Shown one piece after another: positions 676-6,875 of a stretch of DNA of 14,021 nt. The number at the start of each line of letters is the position of its first letter. Within the stretch, counting starts at the first letter, position 1. The DNA lies in the UHGV virus genome UHGV-0240988; one strand, given 5' to 3'. This stretch comes from a virus. The position numbers and the translations under genes are program-made. Below the pieces are notes generated by a model. It was not told the DNA's origin, searched no databases, and saw nothing but the letters and a program-made list of their open reading frames with translations.

Positions 676-854
676 TTCTTCCCACTCCGCCACATCGCAT
701 TCAGATATTTGTTGTCATTAACAGAACCGAAACTCTTTCTCTTAAGCAATTCCTCTCTCGATGGCATTGGCTTTACGCGTTGGCGAATAATCATTTCTGC
801 CGGAAGAATGCCGGGATTGTATGCAAGTCCTCTCATGGTAAATTCCTCAGTCAT
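672..854 (-). CDS. Hypothetical small protein (start uncertain: ATG 854, ATG 869 or upstream)
   Basis: Track ORF 672..977 overlaps the 847..1143 ORF in another frame; internal ATG at 854 sits 3 nt upstream of that ORF's stop (ATGACTGA), suggesting coupling. No clear SD. Confidence 0.3.
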
Positions 855-1143
855 TACTGATAGCGCCATAGCGTGATCGATAATTACGCAGCCGCGGGTC
901 GATATATTCAGGGAAGTGGGTATATGTGGCTTTGCGGAATGGTCGGATTGATGTTTCGTTTGTTCGGTCCTTCTCATTTTTTAACGCGAGTTGTATATCG
1001 CGTCGGTACATCCGTTCTGCTTTTGTTTCTGGTGGCAGATCGATAAACGTGTCGAAAATGTTTTTGATATTTTCCAGCACCTCCGCCTTGGAGCTACCGG
1101 AGCAATTGCGCGGGTCATCCGCACCATACAGAGGCGCTGGCAT
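847..1143 (-). CDS. Hypothetical protein, 98 aa
   Basis: ORF with ATG at 1143 and an AAGG motif about 10 nt upstream; lies directly downstream of the SSB-like gene in the same operon. Confidence 0.45.
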
Positions 1144-1166: not shown

Positions 1167-1754
1167 TCAGAAAGCAGGGTAATCGTTCTGGCTGTAACCA
1201 TAATCATCTGCATGATTCTGGCTTACGTTTTTAGAGCGATTGTCTTTATCTTTGAGATTGGCAACCATGTTGGCGATAGTTTCTGGTTGCTTGCCTTCTG
1301 CCTTTTCTTTAAGGGTTTGACCTGTTTGTGCAATAAACGGGATGCGTATTTCCATCTGGTAGTTGTCTGCGCCAGTCTTTTTGTTTGTGGTTAATACTTT
1401 CTGGAGCACTAACCCGATTTTCTTTCCATGAAATTCAGGTGCAACAAATTTACTGGCGGAAACCATATGCTGCGTTAATTGTCCAATCCCGGCACACCCC
1501 ATCATGGCGTGAACGACATTTGCGCCAAATTTGTTTTCCGTTCCGTCATTTTTCTGAACACAGACGCTAAGATATTGGATTTTACGTCCGTCGTCGGATT
1601 CTCCAGAAAACTCAATAAATTTGGCTCCTTTTTCTGATTGCTTTAGTTCTGCTTCAGTAATGGTAATGATATGGGCGCCAGTTTCGTTAATAAAACCACC
1701 TTGCCCTGCGGTCAGTGCTGCTTCTTCGTTATAAGTAAAAATCACGTTGCTCAT
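1167..1754 (-). CDS. SSB-like / DUF669-type single-strand DNA-binding partner of Sak4
   Basis: 195-aa ORF whose ATG (1754) overlaps the sak4-like stop (ATGA); acidic aromatic C-terminal tail ...DDYGYSQNDYPAF resembling the SSB C-terminal DDDIPF tail; position immediately downstream of a Sak4-type ATPase is typical for this family. Confidence 0.55.
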   Translation of the reverse strand: MSNVIFTYNEEAALTAGQGGFINETGAHIITITEAELKQSEKGAKFIEFSGESDDGRKIQYLSVCVQKNDGTENKFGANVVHAMMGCAGIGQLTQHMVSASKFVAPEFHGKKIGLVLQKVLTTNKKTGADNYQMEIRIPFIAQTGQTLKEKAEGKQPETIANMVANLKDKDNRSKNVSQNHADDYGYSQNDYPAF

Positions 1755-2431
1755 GCGGCGTTTTCCTTAATTTGATGAACATTATTGATGCCGTAGTAAT
1801 CACAAACAGTGGCATCGACGAAAGAGAGATCGTTATCAATCTCATTGGAATCAAACATTCCCATTGGGGATTTGACAGTGTCTGCACCGTTGTTTTTCGT
1901 GGTGAAAAAGAACTGGTCATCGCGGGTAAGAGTGCGAAGAACTATAGTAAACATGCCTTCGACAGTGATTTTCTCGTCCAGCATTTTGCCGATAGTTTTC
2001 ATTTTCACGCGCCCCATAGGGGTTTCTTCGGTATGTGCAAGAAAATAGACTCTCAGGTCATCAGGTGCATCCTGTGCAGCCTTAATCACCTCCCATGCGT
2101 GGCGGCCTATCTCAGTGAATTTATCAAACGATTTTTCTTCTGAGCGGCGCATAAACTCATTGCTCATCACATACTGGAAGTCATCAACAATAACGATTCT
2201 TTTTCCGTATTCGTGAGCACGCTTAATTGCAGCAACTATTACGTCCCATTTGTCAGTGGTAACTACGGTTCCTTTTTTTGCTCTGGCATCCCATGCCAGC
2301 CAGTCTTTTGATTTAAATGGAAGCGGCTTGCCTATTGGTTTTATAAGTATTGCTTCCTCTGGATTGATATTTCTCATGCTGGTTGATTTTCCGGTGCCAG
2401 ATTCACCGAGTATTAATGTCGCAGTTCCCAT
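1751..2431 (-). CDS. Sak4-like RecA-fold ssDNA annealing ATPase (AAA_24 family)
   Basis: 226 aa; Walker A LILGESGTGKST near the N-terminus, Walker B RIVIVDD; size and motif order typical of phage Sak4 recombinases; GAGG SD 7 nt upstream of ATG 2431; occupies the position of lambda bet/exo. Confidence 0.7.
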   Translation of the reverse strand: MGTATLILGESGTGKSTSMRNINPEEAILIKPIGKPLPFKSKDWLAWDARAKKGTVVTTDKWDVIVAAIKRAHEYGKRIVIVDDFQYVMSNEFMRRSEEKSFDKFTEIGRHAWEVIKAAQDAPDDLRVYFLAHTEETPMGRVKMKTIGKMLDEKITVEGMFTIVLRTLTRDDQFFFTTKNNGADTVKSPMGMFDSNEIDNDLSFVDATVCDYYGINNVHQIKENAA

Positions 2432-3092: not shown

Positions 3093-3716
3093 TTATGCGA
3101 CCTCGGAAGGAAGTCCAATCATCTTATTCAAATCTTCTACCCGTAAAGCAGGAAGTGCTGTACTTGCTTTATCTGCTTCTTTTGGTAGCAACTCTTTGCT
3201 TTCAGGCCAAACTTCAATAAGTCGCTTAACTGTTGTGACTGAGTTCAAAGCAGCCCATACATTTGATTCGATATCCTTTTTCTTGGCTTCAAGTTTTTGT
3301 TGCAATGCGCAGATTTCATCAAACCTTTTTGTTATTTCGTGTTCTGCGCTAAACATGCATTTATCTTTGGTCGGAGTAGGGAGCAATATATCTTCGCCGT
3401 TGCCGTCTTTCCCATATGAATACCAGCCAACCCTTCTGCCAGATACAGTCAGATAAATTGAAGTTGAACGGGCATCGCATGAGTAAAATGAACATCCCAG
3501 CTTTTCAAGTTCTTCGCTTATAGCCATTAACTTGGATGATAACTGATCCACTTCCTCAGTTTTCTTTTTACCGCCAAACGCAACAACTCTGGCGTCAAGT
3601 GCAAGCTGGTTCTTTAACTTTGTTACTTCTTCAAGCTCAGTGAAAACCCCAGATTTAATTAAAGCGTTACGAGCGATTTTCTCTTTCATTCTCGTAGTTA
3701 AGCGGATTGATGACAT
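3093..3716 (-). CDS. Hypothetical protein, 207 aa (accessory gene between N and cIII, where lambda has ral/sieB/ea10)
   Basis: ATG at 3716 with GAGGAA SD about 8 nt upstream (track ORF extends to 3776); Lys/Glu-rich, no obvious transmembrane segment; no family recognised. Confidence 0.6.
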   Translation of the reverse strand: MSSIRLTTRMKEKIARNALIKSGVFTELEEVTKLKNQLALDARVVAFGGKKKTEEVDQLSSKLMAISEELEKLGCSFYSCDARSTSIYLTVSGRRVGWYSYGKDGNGEDILLPTPTKDKCMFSAEHEITKRFDEICALQQKLEAKKKDIESNVWAALNSVTTVKRLIEVWPESKELLPKEADKASTALPALRVEDLNKMIGLPSEVA

Positions 3717-3777
3717 ATTAATTCCTCTCAAATAAGTGGTTTGCTGCCTAATTTCATTTTCTGGCGACCAACACAAG

Positions 3778-4229: not shown

Positions 4230-4302
4230 TGATGTGTTTAGTATCACCGCCGGAGGTATTTTCGTCAACACCGCTAGAGATAAAATATTACCGCAAATGG
4301 TT
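4230..4302 (-). promoter_or_regulatory. pL promoter with OL1-OL2-OL3 operators (lambda-like, diverged)
   Basis: Three 17-bp sites TATCACCGCCGGAGGTA (4242-4258), CAACACCGCTAGAGATA (4266-4282), TATTACCGCAAATGGTT (4286-4302) closely resemble lambda OL1-3 as recalled; the minus strand reads TTGACG (-35) ... GATACT (-10) ... CATCAGCAGGACGC as at lambda pL. Confidence 0.75.
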
Positions 4303-4450
4303 ATGTGCATGTTTTTACTATTGATTTATTTTTTTAAAGTTTTGCAGAGCTAGTCTGGATGTGTAGGAGCTGAATTGCGCAATGTGATAAGTGTGATTTA
4401 TATTTATTCAATAAATACAATTCGTTAGGTGTGTTTTTGACGGGCTGATG

Positions 4451-4479
4451 GTAAAAGAAAACCCGGCGCGGAGGCCGGG
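4451..4479 (-). terminator. Rho-independent terminator ending the cI-cassette transcript (tIMM-like)
   Basis: Inverted repeat CCCGGC (4462-4467) / GCCGGG (4474-4479) with 6-nt loop, followed on the minus strand by UUUUCUUUUAC; begins 16 nt after the stop of the 309-aa ORF. Confidence 0.6.
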
Positions 4480-4494
4480 CTGAAGGGGCTCATT

Positions 4495-5424
4495 CTAATC
4501 GATTGATTTAATATCCCATTGAGGTCGAGAAACCAGAGTGTATCTGGGCTTGCCCTTACCAACAGTTTTTTTCAGGAACGTGGCTGTTGCAACGCTTCCT
4601 AAGTGCTTGTTTATAATATCTGGGTCATCTACAGCTTTGTCAATGCTAGCGGTTCTGATATCAGTGTTACCTAAAACTATAAATTCACATTGGCGCTTGT
4701 TAGGAAGAGTTCCCAAAAATATAACGTTCTCAATAATTTTTTCCTGCTGAATGTTATCATTGCTGAGATGTTGATATACAGCTTCAAGCTGTTTTGGCTC
4801 TCTAAAAACGATGCTAAAACCTTGGCTTTTAAGTGTAAAAACTGTTTTATTTTCATGCAGATAATGAATGAATGCTCTGATTTTATCTAAGGCCCGAGAG
4901 TCTAAGTTTTCTATAGCATCAGACAATTCTTCATCATCATTATCCAAGCTTGCCTGAAATATTTTTCTGGCCTTATTAATAGCTTTTGCTACTGGGGTTT
5001 CTTCATCGAATTCAAGAGGAGCATCAGGTCTAAACTCTTCAAGTACGAATCCGAAAGAACCACGGGCTGACGCGGTAATCATGAGATGATTATTTTCTAT
5101 GTTTGGTATCTTGCCTGATGCAGGAAGTGGGCCATTGAAAGAGGTTGCCAAGTAAGCTATTGCATCATTAAAACAAGATATAGCTTTTGTTCCAAATACT
5201 GCTGAAATGCCATGCGTGCCAACTACTGTTGGGCCTCTAAAAGTTAACACAGCATGCGTAGGTTCATGTTCTCGAACGTCAGCTTGTGAAATTAATCGCT
5301 CAACTTTCTCCAGACGGTCTTCTAAGCTTTTTCGGCTAATAGAATGACTTGTTGGCATATTTTTTAATAGATTACTTATTTGCTCGCGCTCACTGAGAGC
5401 GAAAACATAATCATTACGATTCAT
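4495..5424 (-). CDS. Hypothetical protein, 309 aa; distal gene of the two-gene cassette in the rexA-rexB position (candidate exclusion/defence component)
   Basis: ATG 5424 overlaps the upstream gene's stop (ATGA) and has a strong SD GAGGGGG about 8 nt upstream; AT-rich relative to flanks; no Walker motifs or long hydrophobic segments seen; no family recognised. Confidence 0.7.
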   Translation of the reverse strand: MNRNDYVFALSEREQISNLLKNMPTSHSISRKSLEDRLEKVERLISQADVREHEPTHAVLTFRGPTVVGTHGISAVFGTKAISCFNDAIAYLATSFNGPLPASGKIPNIENNHLMITASARGSFGFVLEEFRPDAPLEFDEETPVAKAINKARKIFQASLDNDDEELSDAIENLDSRALDKIRAFIHYLHENKTVFTLKSQGFSIVFREPKQLEAVYQHLSNDNIQQEKIIENVIFLGTLPNKRQCEFIVLGNTDIRTASIDKAVDDPDIINKHLGSVATATFLKKTVGKGKPRYTLVSRPQWDIKSID

Positions 5425-5999
5425 TGTTTGACCCCCTCAGTAGTAGCCGAATTAAGTATAGTCATTGCCACAACATCAAGTTGTGGGTTTAACGGGATTT
5501 GGATAAATCCCTTCCACGACAGATCGCGTCTATGTGCCCACATACTGTACCAATATACAGTCATTTCAACAAGCTCATGACTTGGTAGATTAAGTTCTTG
5601 GAAGTAGGAATCTACGAAAAACTCCTTCTTAACAAAATCATGATCAAATAGCTCTGGCTTTCTACCGATTACGATTGCATCATTATCGCCATTACTGAAT
5701 TGAAAAAAGGTCACAACATCGACATCATTCGGTGGCCTTTTTTCAATAAGTTCAATATGTTCTGTGAAGCTTCCATCTACCCACTGAAAACCTTCAACTA
5801 GCCCTGCTTGAGTGAGTGAAACACGAAAGTTAAGAAAACCCTTAAGGATTTTAATCCTTGCAGGGCTAAGCGAAAAAGTACTAACAAAGCGTACTATATC
5901 CATTTTGTATGGGGAACGAGTATGGCTTGTAGGATCAGCCTCGTCTATTGGGGGGATTAACCCCATCTCATTCCATAGAGAGACAGTTGGTATACTCAA
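5421..5999 (-). CDS. Hypothetical protein, 192 aa (or about 181 aa from ATG 5966); proximal gene of the rex-slot cassette; possible minimal nucleotidyltransferase-like motif
   Basis: Track start is TTG at 5999 (AAGG 9 nt upstream); in-frame ATG at 5966. Contains ...WVDGSF-x14-DVDVV..., which loosely fits the G[SG]...[DE]h[DE]h signature of Pol-beta-superfamily nucleotidyltransferases (inference only). Confidence 0.6.
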   Translation of the reverse strand: MSIPTVSLWNEMGLIPPIDEADPTSHTRSPYKMDIVRFVSTFSLSPARIKILKGFLNFRVSLTQAGLVEGFQWVDGSFTEHIELIEKRPPNDVDVVTFFQFSNGDNDAIVIGRKPELFDHDFVKKEFFVDSYFQELNLPSHELVEMTVYWYSMWAHRRDLSWKGFIQIPLNPQLDVVAMTILNSATTEGVKQ

Positions 6000-6085
6000 T
6001 GCTTAACCTTTATAACGAACTGAATATTCGGCAAAATATTGTTTTTAGGTATTGGCTGCTGTGCTTGTCGGACGTTTATTTCGTG

Positions 6086-6802
<717 letters not shown>

Positions 6803-6809
6803 TTAAATC

Positions 6810-6875
6810 TATCACCGCAGGGGATAAATATCTAACACCGCAGATGTTGGCTATTTTACCTCTGGCGGTGATAAT
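6810..6875. promoter_or_regulatory. OR3-OR2-OR1 operators with divergent pRM (leftward) and pR (rightward) promoters
   Basis: OR3 TATCACCGCAGGGGATA (6810-6826), OR2 TAACACCGCAGATGTTG (6833-6849), OR1 TACCTCTGGCGGTGATA (6857-6873); pR -35 TTGGCT (6847-6852) and -10 GATAAT (6870-6875); cro SD TAAGGAGG follows. Confidence 0.8.

What the first reader, a model, noticed from the sequence alone, without database searches (positions are those of the whole stretch)
5421..5999. Possible minimal nucleotidyltransferase signature in the rex-slot 192-aa protein; start codon ambiguous
The segment WVDGSFTEHIELIEKRPPNDVDVVTF has a Gly-Ser followed 14 residues later by D-V-D, the arrangement seen in Pol-beta-superfamily nucleotidyltransferases (MNT toxins/antitoxins, CD-NTase-like enzymes). 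If real, the cassette could act by nucleotide signalling or NTP transfer, a recurrent theme in defence systems. The annotated start is TTG 5999; an ATG at 5966 is an alternative.
Basis: inference. Interest (0 to 1): 0.6.

Follow-up and report, generated by a model that had tools for sequence, protein, structure and literature searches.

The report
Divergent nucleotidyltransferase cassette in rex slot
The 192-aa protein next to the lambda-type repressor carries a strictly conserved nucleotidyltransferase catalytic signature and is always paired with a 309-aa partner of unknown function, forming a widespread, untested two-gene module that most likely protects lysogens against other phages.

Summary

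The TTG at 5999 is the real start. The residues upstream of the internal ATG are conserved across the family, and a Klebsiella relative keeps the TTG and its AAGG.

The gene overlaps by ATGA a 309-aa orphan partner (invariant GSFGF hairpin, OB-like C-terminus). That partner follows it in every locus with enough downstream sequence. The pair replaces rexAB between lambda-type cI and oL/pL. In 22 of 80 other genomes it sits inside type I restriction-modification operons. It is a divergent branch of the PADLOC candidate PDC-M63AB, whose only reported test (a deletion) showed no defence.

Most likely it is a lysogen-expressed conflict module that acts by nucleotide transfer. Diffusible signalling is less likely.

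The parts
5421..5999 (-). DUF6932 gene, 192 aa: divergent minimal Pol-beta-fold nucleotidyltransferase (A component of the cassette)
5997..5999 (-). TTG start codon (supported), two codons after an in-frame TAA at 6005-6003
   Evidence: This is the only canonical start upstream of the conserved P-x-W-N residues. Klebsiella homologue L013 keeps the TTG and the upstream AAGG. RefSeq also uses this start, WP_024201976.1.
6007..6010 (-). AAGG Shine-Dalgarno-like element, 7 nt upstream of the TTG
   Evidence: Read directly from the sequence. The same AAGG at the same spacing is present in Klebsiella L013/L014.
5964..5966 (-). Internal ATG (Met12), the alternative start; rejected as the main start
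   Evidence: This alignment column is variable (M in only 47 of 358 sequences). The columns just upstream are conserved: P 291, W/F 313, N/T/D 304 of 358.
5769..5774 (-). G76-S77, the NTase hG[GS] motif at the end of beta1
   Evidence: Invariant in 132/132. Follows strand E69-75 in the model.
5718..5726 (-). D92-V93-D94, the metal-binding DxD at the start of beta2
   Evidence: D92 and D94 invariant in 132/132. Strand E93-100 in the model.
5610..5612 (-). D130, the third catalytic carboxylate on beta3 (hDh: V-D-S)
   Evidence: Kept in 130/132, with one E and one gap. Strand E129-135 in the model.
5505..5555 (-). C-terminal conserved block YWYSMWAHRRDLSWKG (residues 149-164): family-specific, candidate substrate or triphosphate contacts
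   Evidence: Y149, W150, H156, W162, K163 and G164 are near-invariant. The functional role is inferred.
4495..5424 (-). Partner gene, 309 aa (B component): orphan family with a helical N-terminus, a beta-hairpin domain and an OB-like C-terminal barrel
   Evidence: phrog_18731 E=3.6e-53. No Pfam, NCBIfam, PADLOC or PDB sequence hit. Found directly downstream of DUF6932 in 156/159 and 56/56 loci. AF2 pLDDT 85.5.
5421..5424 (-). ATGA overlap between the DUF6932 stop and the partner start (translational coupling)
   Evidence: Read from the sequence. The same 4-nt overlap occurs in 102 of 156 homologous junctions, and an overlap of 8-14 nt in 39 more.
5047..5061 (-). Partner G122-S123-F124-G125-F126 motif at the tip of a beta-hairpin
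   Evidence: G122, S123 and G125 are invariant in 133/133; F124 in 131 and F126 in 132. The hairpin is E114-119, turn, E124-130. Its role as a modification or binding site is inferred.
4525..4752 (-). Partner C-terminal OB-like beta-barrel (about residues 225-300)
4460..4481 (-). Intrinsic-terminator-like hairpin 14 nt after the partner stop (tImm-like end of the immunity transcript)
   Evidence: Stem of 8 pairs, 6 of them G-C, followed by a T-run.
4240..4270 (-). Lambda-type oL operator (TATCACCGCCGGAGGTA, 4242-4258) and pL-like promoter (TTGACG-17-GATACT)
   Evidence: mEp234 annotates a lambda-PL-like promoter at the equivalent place.
6086..6799 (-). Lambda-type cI repressor (HTH_3 + Peptidase_S24), directly upstream and co-oriented
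   Evidence: Pfam. About 90% DNA identity to the immunity regions of mEp234, HK106 and HK97.
6810..6875 (.). oR operators (6810-6826, 6830-6843, 6855-6873) and pR-like promoter (6847-6875, + strand)

Best explanation
The 192-aa protein is a real, probably catalytically competent, and highly divergent minimal Pol-beta-fold nucleotidyltransferase (Pfam DUF6932). It is the first gene of an obligate, translationally coupled two-gene module. The second gene encodes a 309-aa protein with no enzyme-like signature, an invariant GSFGF beta-hairpin and an OB-like C-terminal barrel. In this prophage the module replaces rexAB. It lies between the lambda-type cI gene and the immunity terminator, so it is most likely co-transcribed with cI in the lysogen. 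The module is a divergent branch of the PADLOC candidate PDC-M63AB. My proposed mechanism is inferred, not shown. It is a lysogen-expressed conflict module of the phage-exclusion, abortive-infection or toxin-antitoxin-like kind. The NTase would transfer a nucleotide monophosphate onto a macromolecule, either the partner itself (for example its invariant Ser123) or an RNA or DNA end that the partner's OB domain presents. The partner would act as sensor, regulator or adaptor, not as a second enzyme. Approximate sub-claim confidences: NTase fold with an intact active site 0.8; obligate two-gene conflict or defence module 0.65; macromolecular NMP transfer rather than a diffusible signal 0.4.
Confidence: 0.55

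Rival explanations
1. Classical type VII toxin-antitoxin logic, as in MntA-HepT. The NTase is the antitoxin and keeps a toxic partner inactive by covalent (oligo)nucleotidylylation. Phage infection would release the toxin.
For: The gene order (NTase first) and the overlapping junction match MNT-HEPN operons. The cassette occupies the same slot as HicAB in mEp234 and lies in type I R-M operons where MNT modules also occur; L061 and L085 have a bona fide MNT next to hsdS. An invariant exposed Ser123 on the partner hairpin is a candidate acceptor.
Against: The partner has no HEPN Rx4-6H motif, no conserved His, no nuclease or TM domain and very few invariant polar residues, so a toxic activity is not evident. 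The NTase is not a sequence-level MNT.
Confidence: 0.2
2. The NTase is itself the toxin or effector, as in MenT or AbiEii, which nucleotidylate tRNA acceptor ends. The partner is its antitoxin or sensor and restrains it until infection.
For: The partner looks non-enzymatic while the NTase has an intact active site, so the NTase is the only candidate effector. The OB-like domain could bind RNA or ssDNA. The strict pairing fits an addiction module.
Against: There is no similarity to DUF1814 (AbiEii/MenT) in Pfam or PADLOC. The gene order is the reverse of AbiE and MenAT, where the antitoxin comes first (my knowledge of those systems). No toxicity data exist.
Confidence: 0.2
3. CBASS-like or Hailong-like nucleotide signalling. 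The NTase makes a diffusible nucleotide or oligonucleotide signal on infection, and the partner is the receptor-effector.
Against: At 192 aa the protein lacks the C-terminal helical domain of CD-NTases. There is no hit to SMODS or CD-NTase models in Pfam or PADLOC. The partner has no SAVED, STING, CARF, TIR, nuclease, phospholipase or TM domain. MNT and ANT-type enzymes score above CD-NTases.
Confidence: 0.1
4. [not shown]
Against: Invariance of all three carboxylates and of GS over about 2,000 clusters argues against a dead enzyme. Recurrent embedding in type I R-M operons and next to prophage repressors, with an obligate partner, is typical of conflict systems and not of resistance or housekeeping genes. 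The C-terminal substrate domain of ANT enzymes is missing, since the protein is only 192 aa.
Confidence: 0.1

Closest known systems
PADLOC candidate system PDC-M63AB (phage defence candidate; not experimentally validated)
   Same: It is a two-gene module with the same order, sizes and prophage location. Every DUF6932 protein tested hits the PDC-M63A model (E 2e-10 to 1e-19). A member of the partner family (L161) aligns end to end with PDC-M63B, residues 11-304 against positions 14-308 of 309.
   Different: The window's own partner does not reach the PDC-M63B models, and its A protein scores only 38.7 bits, so this is a divergent branch. No mechanism or NTase assignment for PDC-M63 appears in the literature I could search. 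The one deletion test found no defence (PMC12409345).
MNT-HEPN (MntA-HepT) type VII toxin-antitoxin systems
   Different: There is no sequence-profile similarity to MNT, although a thin MNT profile readily finds many solved NTases. DUF6932 is about twice the size of an MNT, with conserved N- and C-terminal extensions, and GS to DxD is 14 residues rather than about 10. The partner is not HEPN.
Lambda RexA/RexB exclusion system
   Same: The genomic position and likely expression are identical: two genes directly downstream of cI, inside the immunity region, ending at a terminator before oL/pL.
   Different: There is no homology. Neither protein hits any Rex or other validated defence model in PADLOC. 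The partner has no predicted membrane domain, unlike RexB (my knowledge of RexB; model). The analogy is positional only.
AbiE (AbiEii) and MenAT (MenT) nucleotidyltransferase toxins
   Same: These are NTase-fold proteins in two-gene abortive-infection or TA modules that act by nucleotide transfer to macromolecules (established knowledge).
   Different: There is no DUF1814 hit. The size is different (192 aa against roughly 280-300 aa), the gene order is the opposite, and the partner is unrelated to AbiEi or MenA.
CBASS CD-NTases (SMODS)
   Different: DUF6932 lacks the CD-NTase C-terminal domain and has no SMODS or Cdn model hit. The partner is not a known CBASS effector.
Aminoglycoside nucleotidyltransferases ANT(3'')(9) and KNTase
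   Different: Only the N-terminal NTase core aligns. The ANT C-terminal substrate-binding domain is absent, and the genomic context is not one of antibiotic resistance.

Membership tests
Pfam DUF6932 (PF22014) | Score above the curated gathering threshold over the whole domain | tested here: met
   93.6 bits against a cutoff of 27, residues 9-168 on profile positions 3-141 of 142. All 78 and then 120 listed homologues carry PF22014.
Pol-beta-like nucleotidyltransferase superfamily | hG[GS] motif between beta1 and the following helix | tested here: met
   V74-D75-G76-S77 directly after strand 69-75. G76 and S77 invariant in 132/132.
Pol-beta-like nucleotidyltransferase superfamily | [DE]h[DE]h metal-binding motif on beta2, 9-15 residues after GS | tested here: met
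   D92-V-D94-V at the start of strand 93-100, 14 residues after S77. Both D invariant in 132/132.
Pol-beta-like nucleotidyltransferase superfamily | Third carboxylate (h[DE]h) on beta3 | tested here: met
   V129-D130-S131 in strand 129-135. D in 130/132 plus one E. The D94-to-D130 spacing is 35 residues, against 32 in the MNT alignment A5.
Pol-beta-like nucleotidyltransferase superfamily | alpha-beta-alpha-beta-alpha-beta-alpha core topology | tested here: met
   H46-64, E69-75, H82-85, E93-100, H107-127, E129-135, H140-154 in a model with pLDDT 90.2. This is a predicted structure, not an experimental one.
Pol-beta-like nucleotidyltransferase superfamily | Statistically significant structural similarity to solved NTases | tested here: inconclusive
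   [not shown]
Pol-beta-like nucleotidyltransferase superfamily | Nucleotidyl-transfer activity dependent on the carboxylates | not testable with these tools
   Needs biochemistry with D92A/D94A/D130A controls.
MNT / NTP_transf_2 / Polbeta Pfam families (PF01909, PF18765) | Sequence or profile similarity to the family models | tested here: not met
   No hit even at E<=10 in 37 members. hhalign against 2- and 8-sequence MNT profiles gives probability below 1% and a non-canonical register. The DUF6932 profile against PDB finds only spurious PPR repeats, while an MNT profile finds 29 solved NTases.
[quoted passage not shown] | Partner is a HEPN domain with an Rx4-6H RNase motif | tested here: not met
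   No HEPN hit in Pfam or PADLOC. No conserved His among the partner's invariant residues. The fold is mixed alpha/beta plus an OB-like barrel.
[quoted passage not shown] | The NTase gene comes first and is translationally coupled to its partner | tested here: met
   ATGA overlap in the window and in 102/156 homologous junctions.
CBASS | CD-NTase (SMODS) cyclase plus an effector with a known sensor or killing domain | tested here: not met
   No Cdn or SMODS model hit in PADLOC or Pfam. The protein is 192 aa with no C-terminal CD-NTase domain. The partner has no recognised effector domain.
PADLOC PDC-M63AB candidate | The A protein matches the PDC-M63A model | tested here: met
   E=2.2e-10, 38.7 bits, residues 38-171 on positions 26-150 of 152. 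Relatives score E 1e-11 to 1e-19.
PADLOC PDC-M63AB candidate | The adjacent B protein matches the PDC-M63B model | tested here: inconclusive
   The window partner has no hit at E<=1. Its homologue in L161 matches PDC-M63B full length at E=2e-7, and the window partner and L161's partner belong to one HMM family. Membership therefore rests on transitivity only.
Lambda RexAB | Homology to RexA and RexB | tested here: not met
   No PADLOC, Pfam or PHROG Rex hit for either protein. Only the genomic position is shared.

The most novel reading that the evidence does not exclude
DUF6932 plus its GSFGF/OB partner is a previously unrecognised, very widespread NTase-based immune system: about 2,000 protein clusters across many bacterial phyla and methanogenic archaea. 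Its chemistry would be new for defence. For example, the NTase might nucleotidylylate, or prime a nucleotide chain on, the invariant Ser of its partner. Alternatively it might tail a phage or host nucleic-acid end that the OB domain presents. It would have been recruited independently into the lambda rex slot and into type I R-M operons.
Probability: 0.25. Interest if true: 0.8.

Novelty: new variant of a known kind. Interest (0 to 1): 0.55.

Why it matters
It gives a concrete, testable biochemical handle (D92/D94/D130, G76-S77) for a Pfam family of unknown function. That family is present in roughly 2,000 sequence clusters across bacteria and archaea. It also gives one for a PADLOC candidate defence system that has no proposed mechanism. 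The work shows that the lambda rexAB position is a swappable cargo slot (rexAB, HicAB, this cassette). It also shows that the same module recurs inside type I restriction-modification operons, which is strong circumstantial evidence for a role in phage-host conflict. If the chemistry involves the orphan OB-fold partner, it would add a new partner class to NTase-based conflict systems. For annotation, the TTG start should be kept, and homologues annotated from the internal ATG are probably truncated by 11 residues.

Tried and rejected
1. PDB sequence search with the single protein found nothing. With the family profile it gave only spurious summed 'DVVTY' matches to designer PPR repeats, which I rejected.
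2. Pfam at E<=10 on 37 family members found no weak NTase hit.
3. hhalign of the DUF6932 profile against a 2-sequence MNT profile and of a 359-sequence DUF6932 alignment against an 8-sequence MNT profile gave no meaningful alignment.
4. Building an MNT alignment from viral contigs failed: one fragment only. Mining my loci gave only 4 distinct MNTs.
5. Foldseek against PDB gave no significant hit. The afdb_sample library was unavailable.
7. Domain fusions: ten over-long DUF6932 representatives carry no extra Pfam domain, so the extra length probably reflects over-called starts.
8. Transitive bridge to NTase families: the profile search with divergent members returned 2,152 clusters, but only the top 120 are listed and all are PF22014, so the informative tail could not be seen. 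The same limit applied to the exhaustive search.
9. A scan for more distant relatives with other partners returned essentially the same contigs, all with the same partner.
10. Megablast and tblastn against 50,697 isolated phage genomes found no match to the cassette.
11. Literature searches for DUF6932, WP_024201976 and NTase-in-rex-slot terms found nothing specific.
12. The internal RNA hairpin at 5699-5747 is unusually stable here (z -3.7) but is not conserved in homologues. I rejected it as a functional element.

Full report
**Locus and observation**

The window is the immunity region of a lambdoid E. coli prophage. It is 100% identical over 4400-6100 to 8 of 5,426 complete E. coli genomes, including O7:K1 CE10, where the gene is annotated 'DUF6932 family protein'. 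On the minus strand, in the direction of transcription, the order is as follows.
- A lambda-type cI (6086-6799; HTH_3 + Peptidase_S24).
- The 192-aa ORF (5999-5421).
- A 309-aa ORF (5424-4495) whose start overlaps the first ORF's stop by ATGA.
- A terminator-like hairpin (4481-4460).
- A lambda-type operator TATCACCGCCGGAGGTA and a TTGACG-17-GATACT promoter (4242-4270).
- N (4122-3778).

Lambda-type oR operators and a pR-like promoter lie at 6810-6875.

The flanks are about 90% identical to the immunity regions of phages mEp234, HK106 and HK97, but the two-gene cassette has no match in 50,697 phage genomes. In mEp234 the same slot carries HicA/HicB plus a hypothetical gene. From my own knowledge, lambda carries rexA/rexB there. 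So the 'rex slot' description is correct, and the slot is a variable cargo site.

The motif is exactly as reported: G76-S77, 14 residues, D92-V93-D94. As a bare pattern it is weak evidence, appearing in 1.9% of shuffles of this protein, or 0.45% with the hydrophobic context.

**Conservation**

The protein belongs to Pfam DUF6932 (93.6 bits, cutoff 27) and phrog_9194. An exhaustive profile search finds 1,954 clusters at 50% identity with E<=0.001, almost all stand-alone proteins of about 190 aa. A second profile search finds 2,152 clusters at 90% identity.

Genome scans recovered at least 571 species-level hits. These include Proteobacteria, Planctomycetota, Chlorobi, Myxococcota, Chloroflexota, Acidobacteriota, Firmicutes MAGs and methanogenic archaea.

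In 132 unique sequences from 159 loci (32-100% identity to the query):
- G70, Q72, W73, G76, S77, D92 and D94 are invariant.
- D130 is kept in 130, with one E.
- Y149, W150, H156, W162, K163 and G164 are near-invariant.

The alignment also reveals the third carboxylate that the NTase catalytic triad requires.

**Structure**

AlphaFold2 with a 73-sequence alignment gives pLDDT 90.2 and pTM 0.87. The order of elements is H46-64, E69-75, [GS], H82-85, E93-100 [DxD at its start], H107-127, E129-135 [D130], H140-154, E166-169, H172-190. This is the alpha-beta-alpha-beta-alpha-beta-alpha core of Pol-beta-type nucleotidyltransferases, with each motif on the expected element.

Foldseek gives no significant hit. 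Its best is again a minimal NTase (2rff) at E=0.066.

Sequence-level links fail throughout.
- No Pfam NTase hit appears even at E<=10 in 37 members.
- The family profile finds no solved NTase.
- hhalign against MNT profiles is negative.
- By contrast, a two-sequence MNT profile easily finds 29 solved NTases.

My conclusion is that this is a genuine but very divergent NTase-fold family, with about 0.8 confidence. It is not a member of the MNT or CD-NTase families.

**Start codon**

An in-frame TAA lies two codons upstream of TTG 5999, so the only canonical choices are TTG 5999 or ATG 5966. Four observations favour the TTG.
- In 358 aligned family members the columns upstream of Met12 are conserved (P 291, W/F 313, N/T/D 304), while the Met12 column is variable, with M in 47.
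- Most profile matches begin at profile position 3-4.
- A Klebsiella homologue annotated from the internal ATG has the same in-frame TTG, the same AAGG 7 nt upstream and the peptide TIPTISLWNE against SIPTVSLWNE.
- RefSeq also uses the TTG.

TTG 5999 is therefore supported.

**The partner and the module**

The 309-aa protein has no Pfam, NCBIfam, PADLOC or PDB sequence hit. A homologue nevertheless follows DUF6932 on the same strand in 156 of 159 loci. Two of the exceptions are contig ends and one is an ORF-calling artefact. It also follows in a further 56 of 56 loci and in every hand-checked case: Proteus, Bremerella, Burkholderia, Klebsiella and a metagenome. The junction is an ATGA overlap in 102 of 156 cases and an 8-14 nt overlap in 39 more.

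**Context**

- In viral contigs the ORF directly upstream and co-oriented is usually a CI-type repressor, in clusters of 36, 12 and 7 loci.
- In 22 of 80 taxonomically diverse genomes the pair is embedded in co-directional type I R-M operons, typically hsdM-hsdS-[pair]-hsdR. This position is known to collect abortive-infection and TA modules such as PrrC (established knowledge). Bona fide MNT ORFs lie next to hsdS in two of these same loci.
- Cassette GC (0.35-0.41) is below the flanks.
- All DUF6932 proteins tested hit PADLOC PDC-M63A. One partner (L161) matches PDC-M63B over its full length. The window's cassette is therefore a divergent branch of that two-gene candidate.
- The only published test, deletion of PDC-M63AB from an E. 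coli NILS69 prophage challenged with 10 virulent phages, found no defence (PMC12409345).

**Mechanism (inferred)**

An intact NTase active site, an obligate and stoichiometrically coupled non-enzymatic partner, and conflict-type genomic contexts all point to a lysogen-expressed exclusion, abortive-infection or TA-like module that works by nucleotide transfer.

I favour transfer to a macromolecule. The candidates are the partner's invariant exposed Ser123, or a nucleic-acid end held by the OB domain. I favour this over a diffusible second messenger for two reasons. The enzyme lacks the CD-NTase C-terminal domain, and the partner lacks any known sensor or effector domain.

I cannot decide with these tools whether the NTase is the restraining antitoxin (type VII logic) or the effector (MenT/AbiEii logic). 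I give both as rivals at about 0.2 each. Signalling and non-conflict readings get about 0.1 each.

**Novelty and score**

The family (DUF6932) and the candidate system (PDC-M63) are already catalogued. However, I found no published assignment of an NTase fold or any mechanism. NTase-plus-partner conflict modules are a known kind. This one has an NTase that sequence methods cannot recognise and an orphan OB-fold partner, so I rate it a new variant of a known kind, with interest 0.55.

Noticed in passing
window 5699-5747 (inside the DUF6932 gene, spanning the codons for the DVD motif): A 16-nt inverted repeat (94% complementary) forms an A6-stem-U6 hairpin in the sense RNA, dG -18 kcal/mol, z = -3.7 against shuffles. 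The promoter/terminator scan also flags it as terminator-like on the + strand. Equivalent regions of homologous genes that encode nearly the same peptide fold much more weakly (-5 to -9 kcal/mol), so it looks like a codon-choice accident of this clade.
   Followed up: yes
window 3093-3776 (-), 1751-2431 (-), 1167-1754 (-), 847-1143 (-): The early-left operon downstream of N encodes an Nmad5 'nucleotide modification associated' protein (E=6e-71), an AAA_24 ATPase, a 195-aa protein with no Pfam hit, and a P22-type anti-RecBCD protein Abc2. This is a possible DNA-modification or recombination cargo cluster.
   Followed up: partly
window 10548-11159 (+): A 203-aa HNH_3 + AP2 homing-endonuclease-like ORF lies between the primase-helicase and ninB. 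Judging from the offset of the ninB coordinates in the CE10 annotation, this region appears to be about 477 bp longer than in CE10. That would fit a mobile endonuclease insertion.
   Followed up: no
window 7701-8477 (+) and 8585-10465 (+): The replication module is not lambda O/P. It is an HTH_36 protein with a Gly/Ala-rich low-complexity stretch (GGAGAARGGAGAALGGGAGAA), followed by a 626-aa Toprim + DnaB_C primase-helicase.
   Followed up: partly
window 12510-13196 (+) and 13265-13993 (+): Two consecutive antirepressor-type genes lie in the nin region: ORF6N + P22_AR_C, and Rha + KilAC/ANT.
   Followed up: no
window 6190-6217 (-), inside the 3' end of cI: A promoter-like site (TTGATA-16-TATTTT, 9/12) lies upstream of the cassette. 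It could be an internal promoter for the cassette, analogous to lambda pLIT. It is only a consensus match, and the number of such sites in the region is not above the shuffle expectation.
   Followed up: no
L061:2409-2738 and L085:3350-3682; also L155-L157 near 7930-8268: Bona fide MNT (Polbeta/NTP_transf_2) ORFs lie next to hsdS in the same type I R-M operons that carry the DUF6932 pair, and about 1.4 kb downstream of the pair in some viral contigs. Classical MNTs and the DUF6932 module therefore co-reside rather than replace each other.
   Followed up: partly
L175 (phage mEp234, NC_019715.1 26874-28004); HK106 and HK97 equivalents: The same cI-to-pL slot holds HicA toxin, HicB antitoxin and a hypothetical gene in mEp234 and HK106, and gp48/gp49 in HK97. 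This illustrates cargo exchange at this position among phages with the same immunity region.
   Followed up: partly
L002-L005 (Proteus mirabilis prophage) 4614-4949: In Proteus prophages a DUF3024 protein sits between the S24 repressor and the DUF6932 pair, so the slot can hold additional cargo.
   Followed up: no
L012:4001-4863: One metagenomic DUF6932 copy (P0077) has a degenerate N-terminus and is followed by only an 83-aa ORF. It is probably a decaying cassette, and it is the only case seen where the partner is not full length.
   Followed up: no
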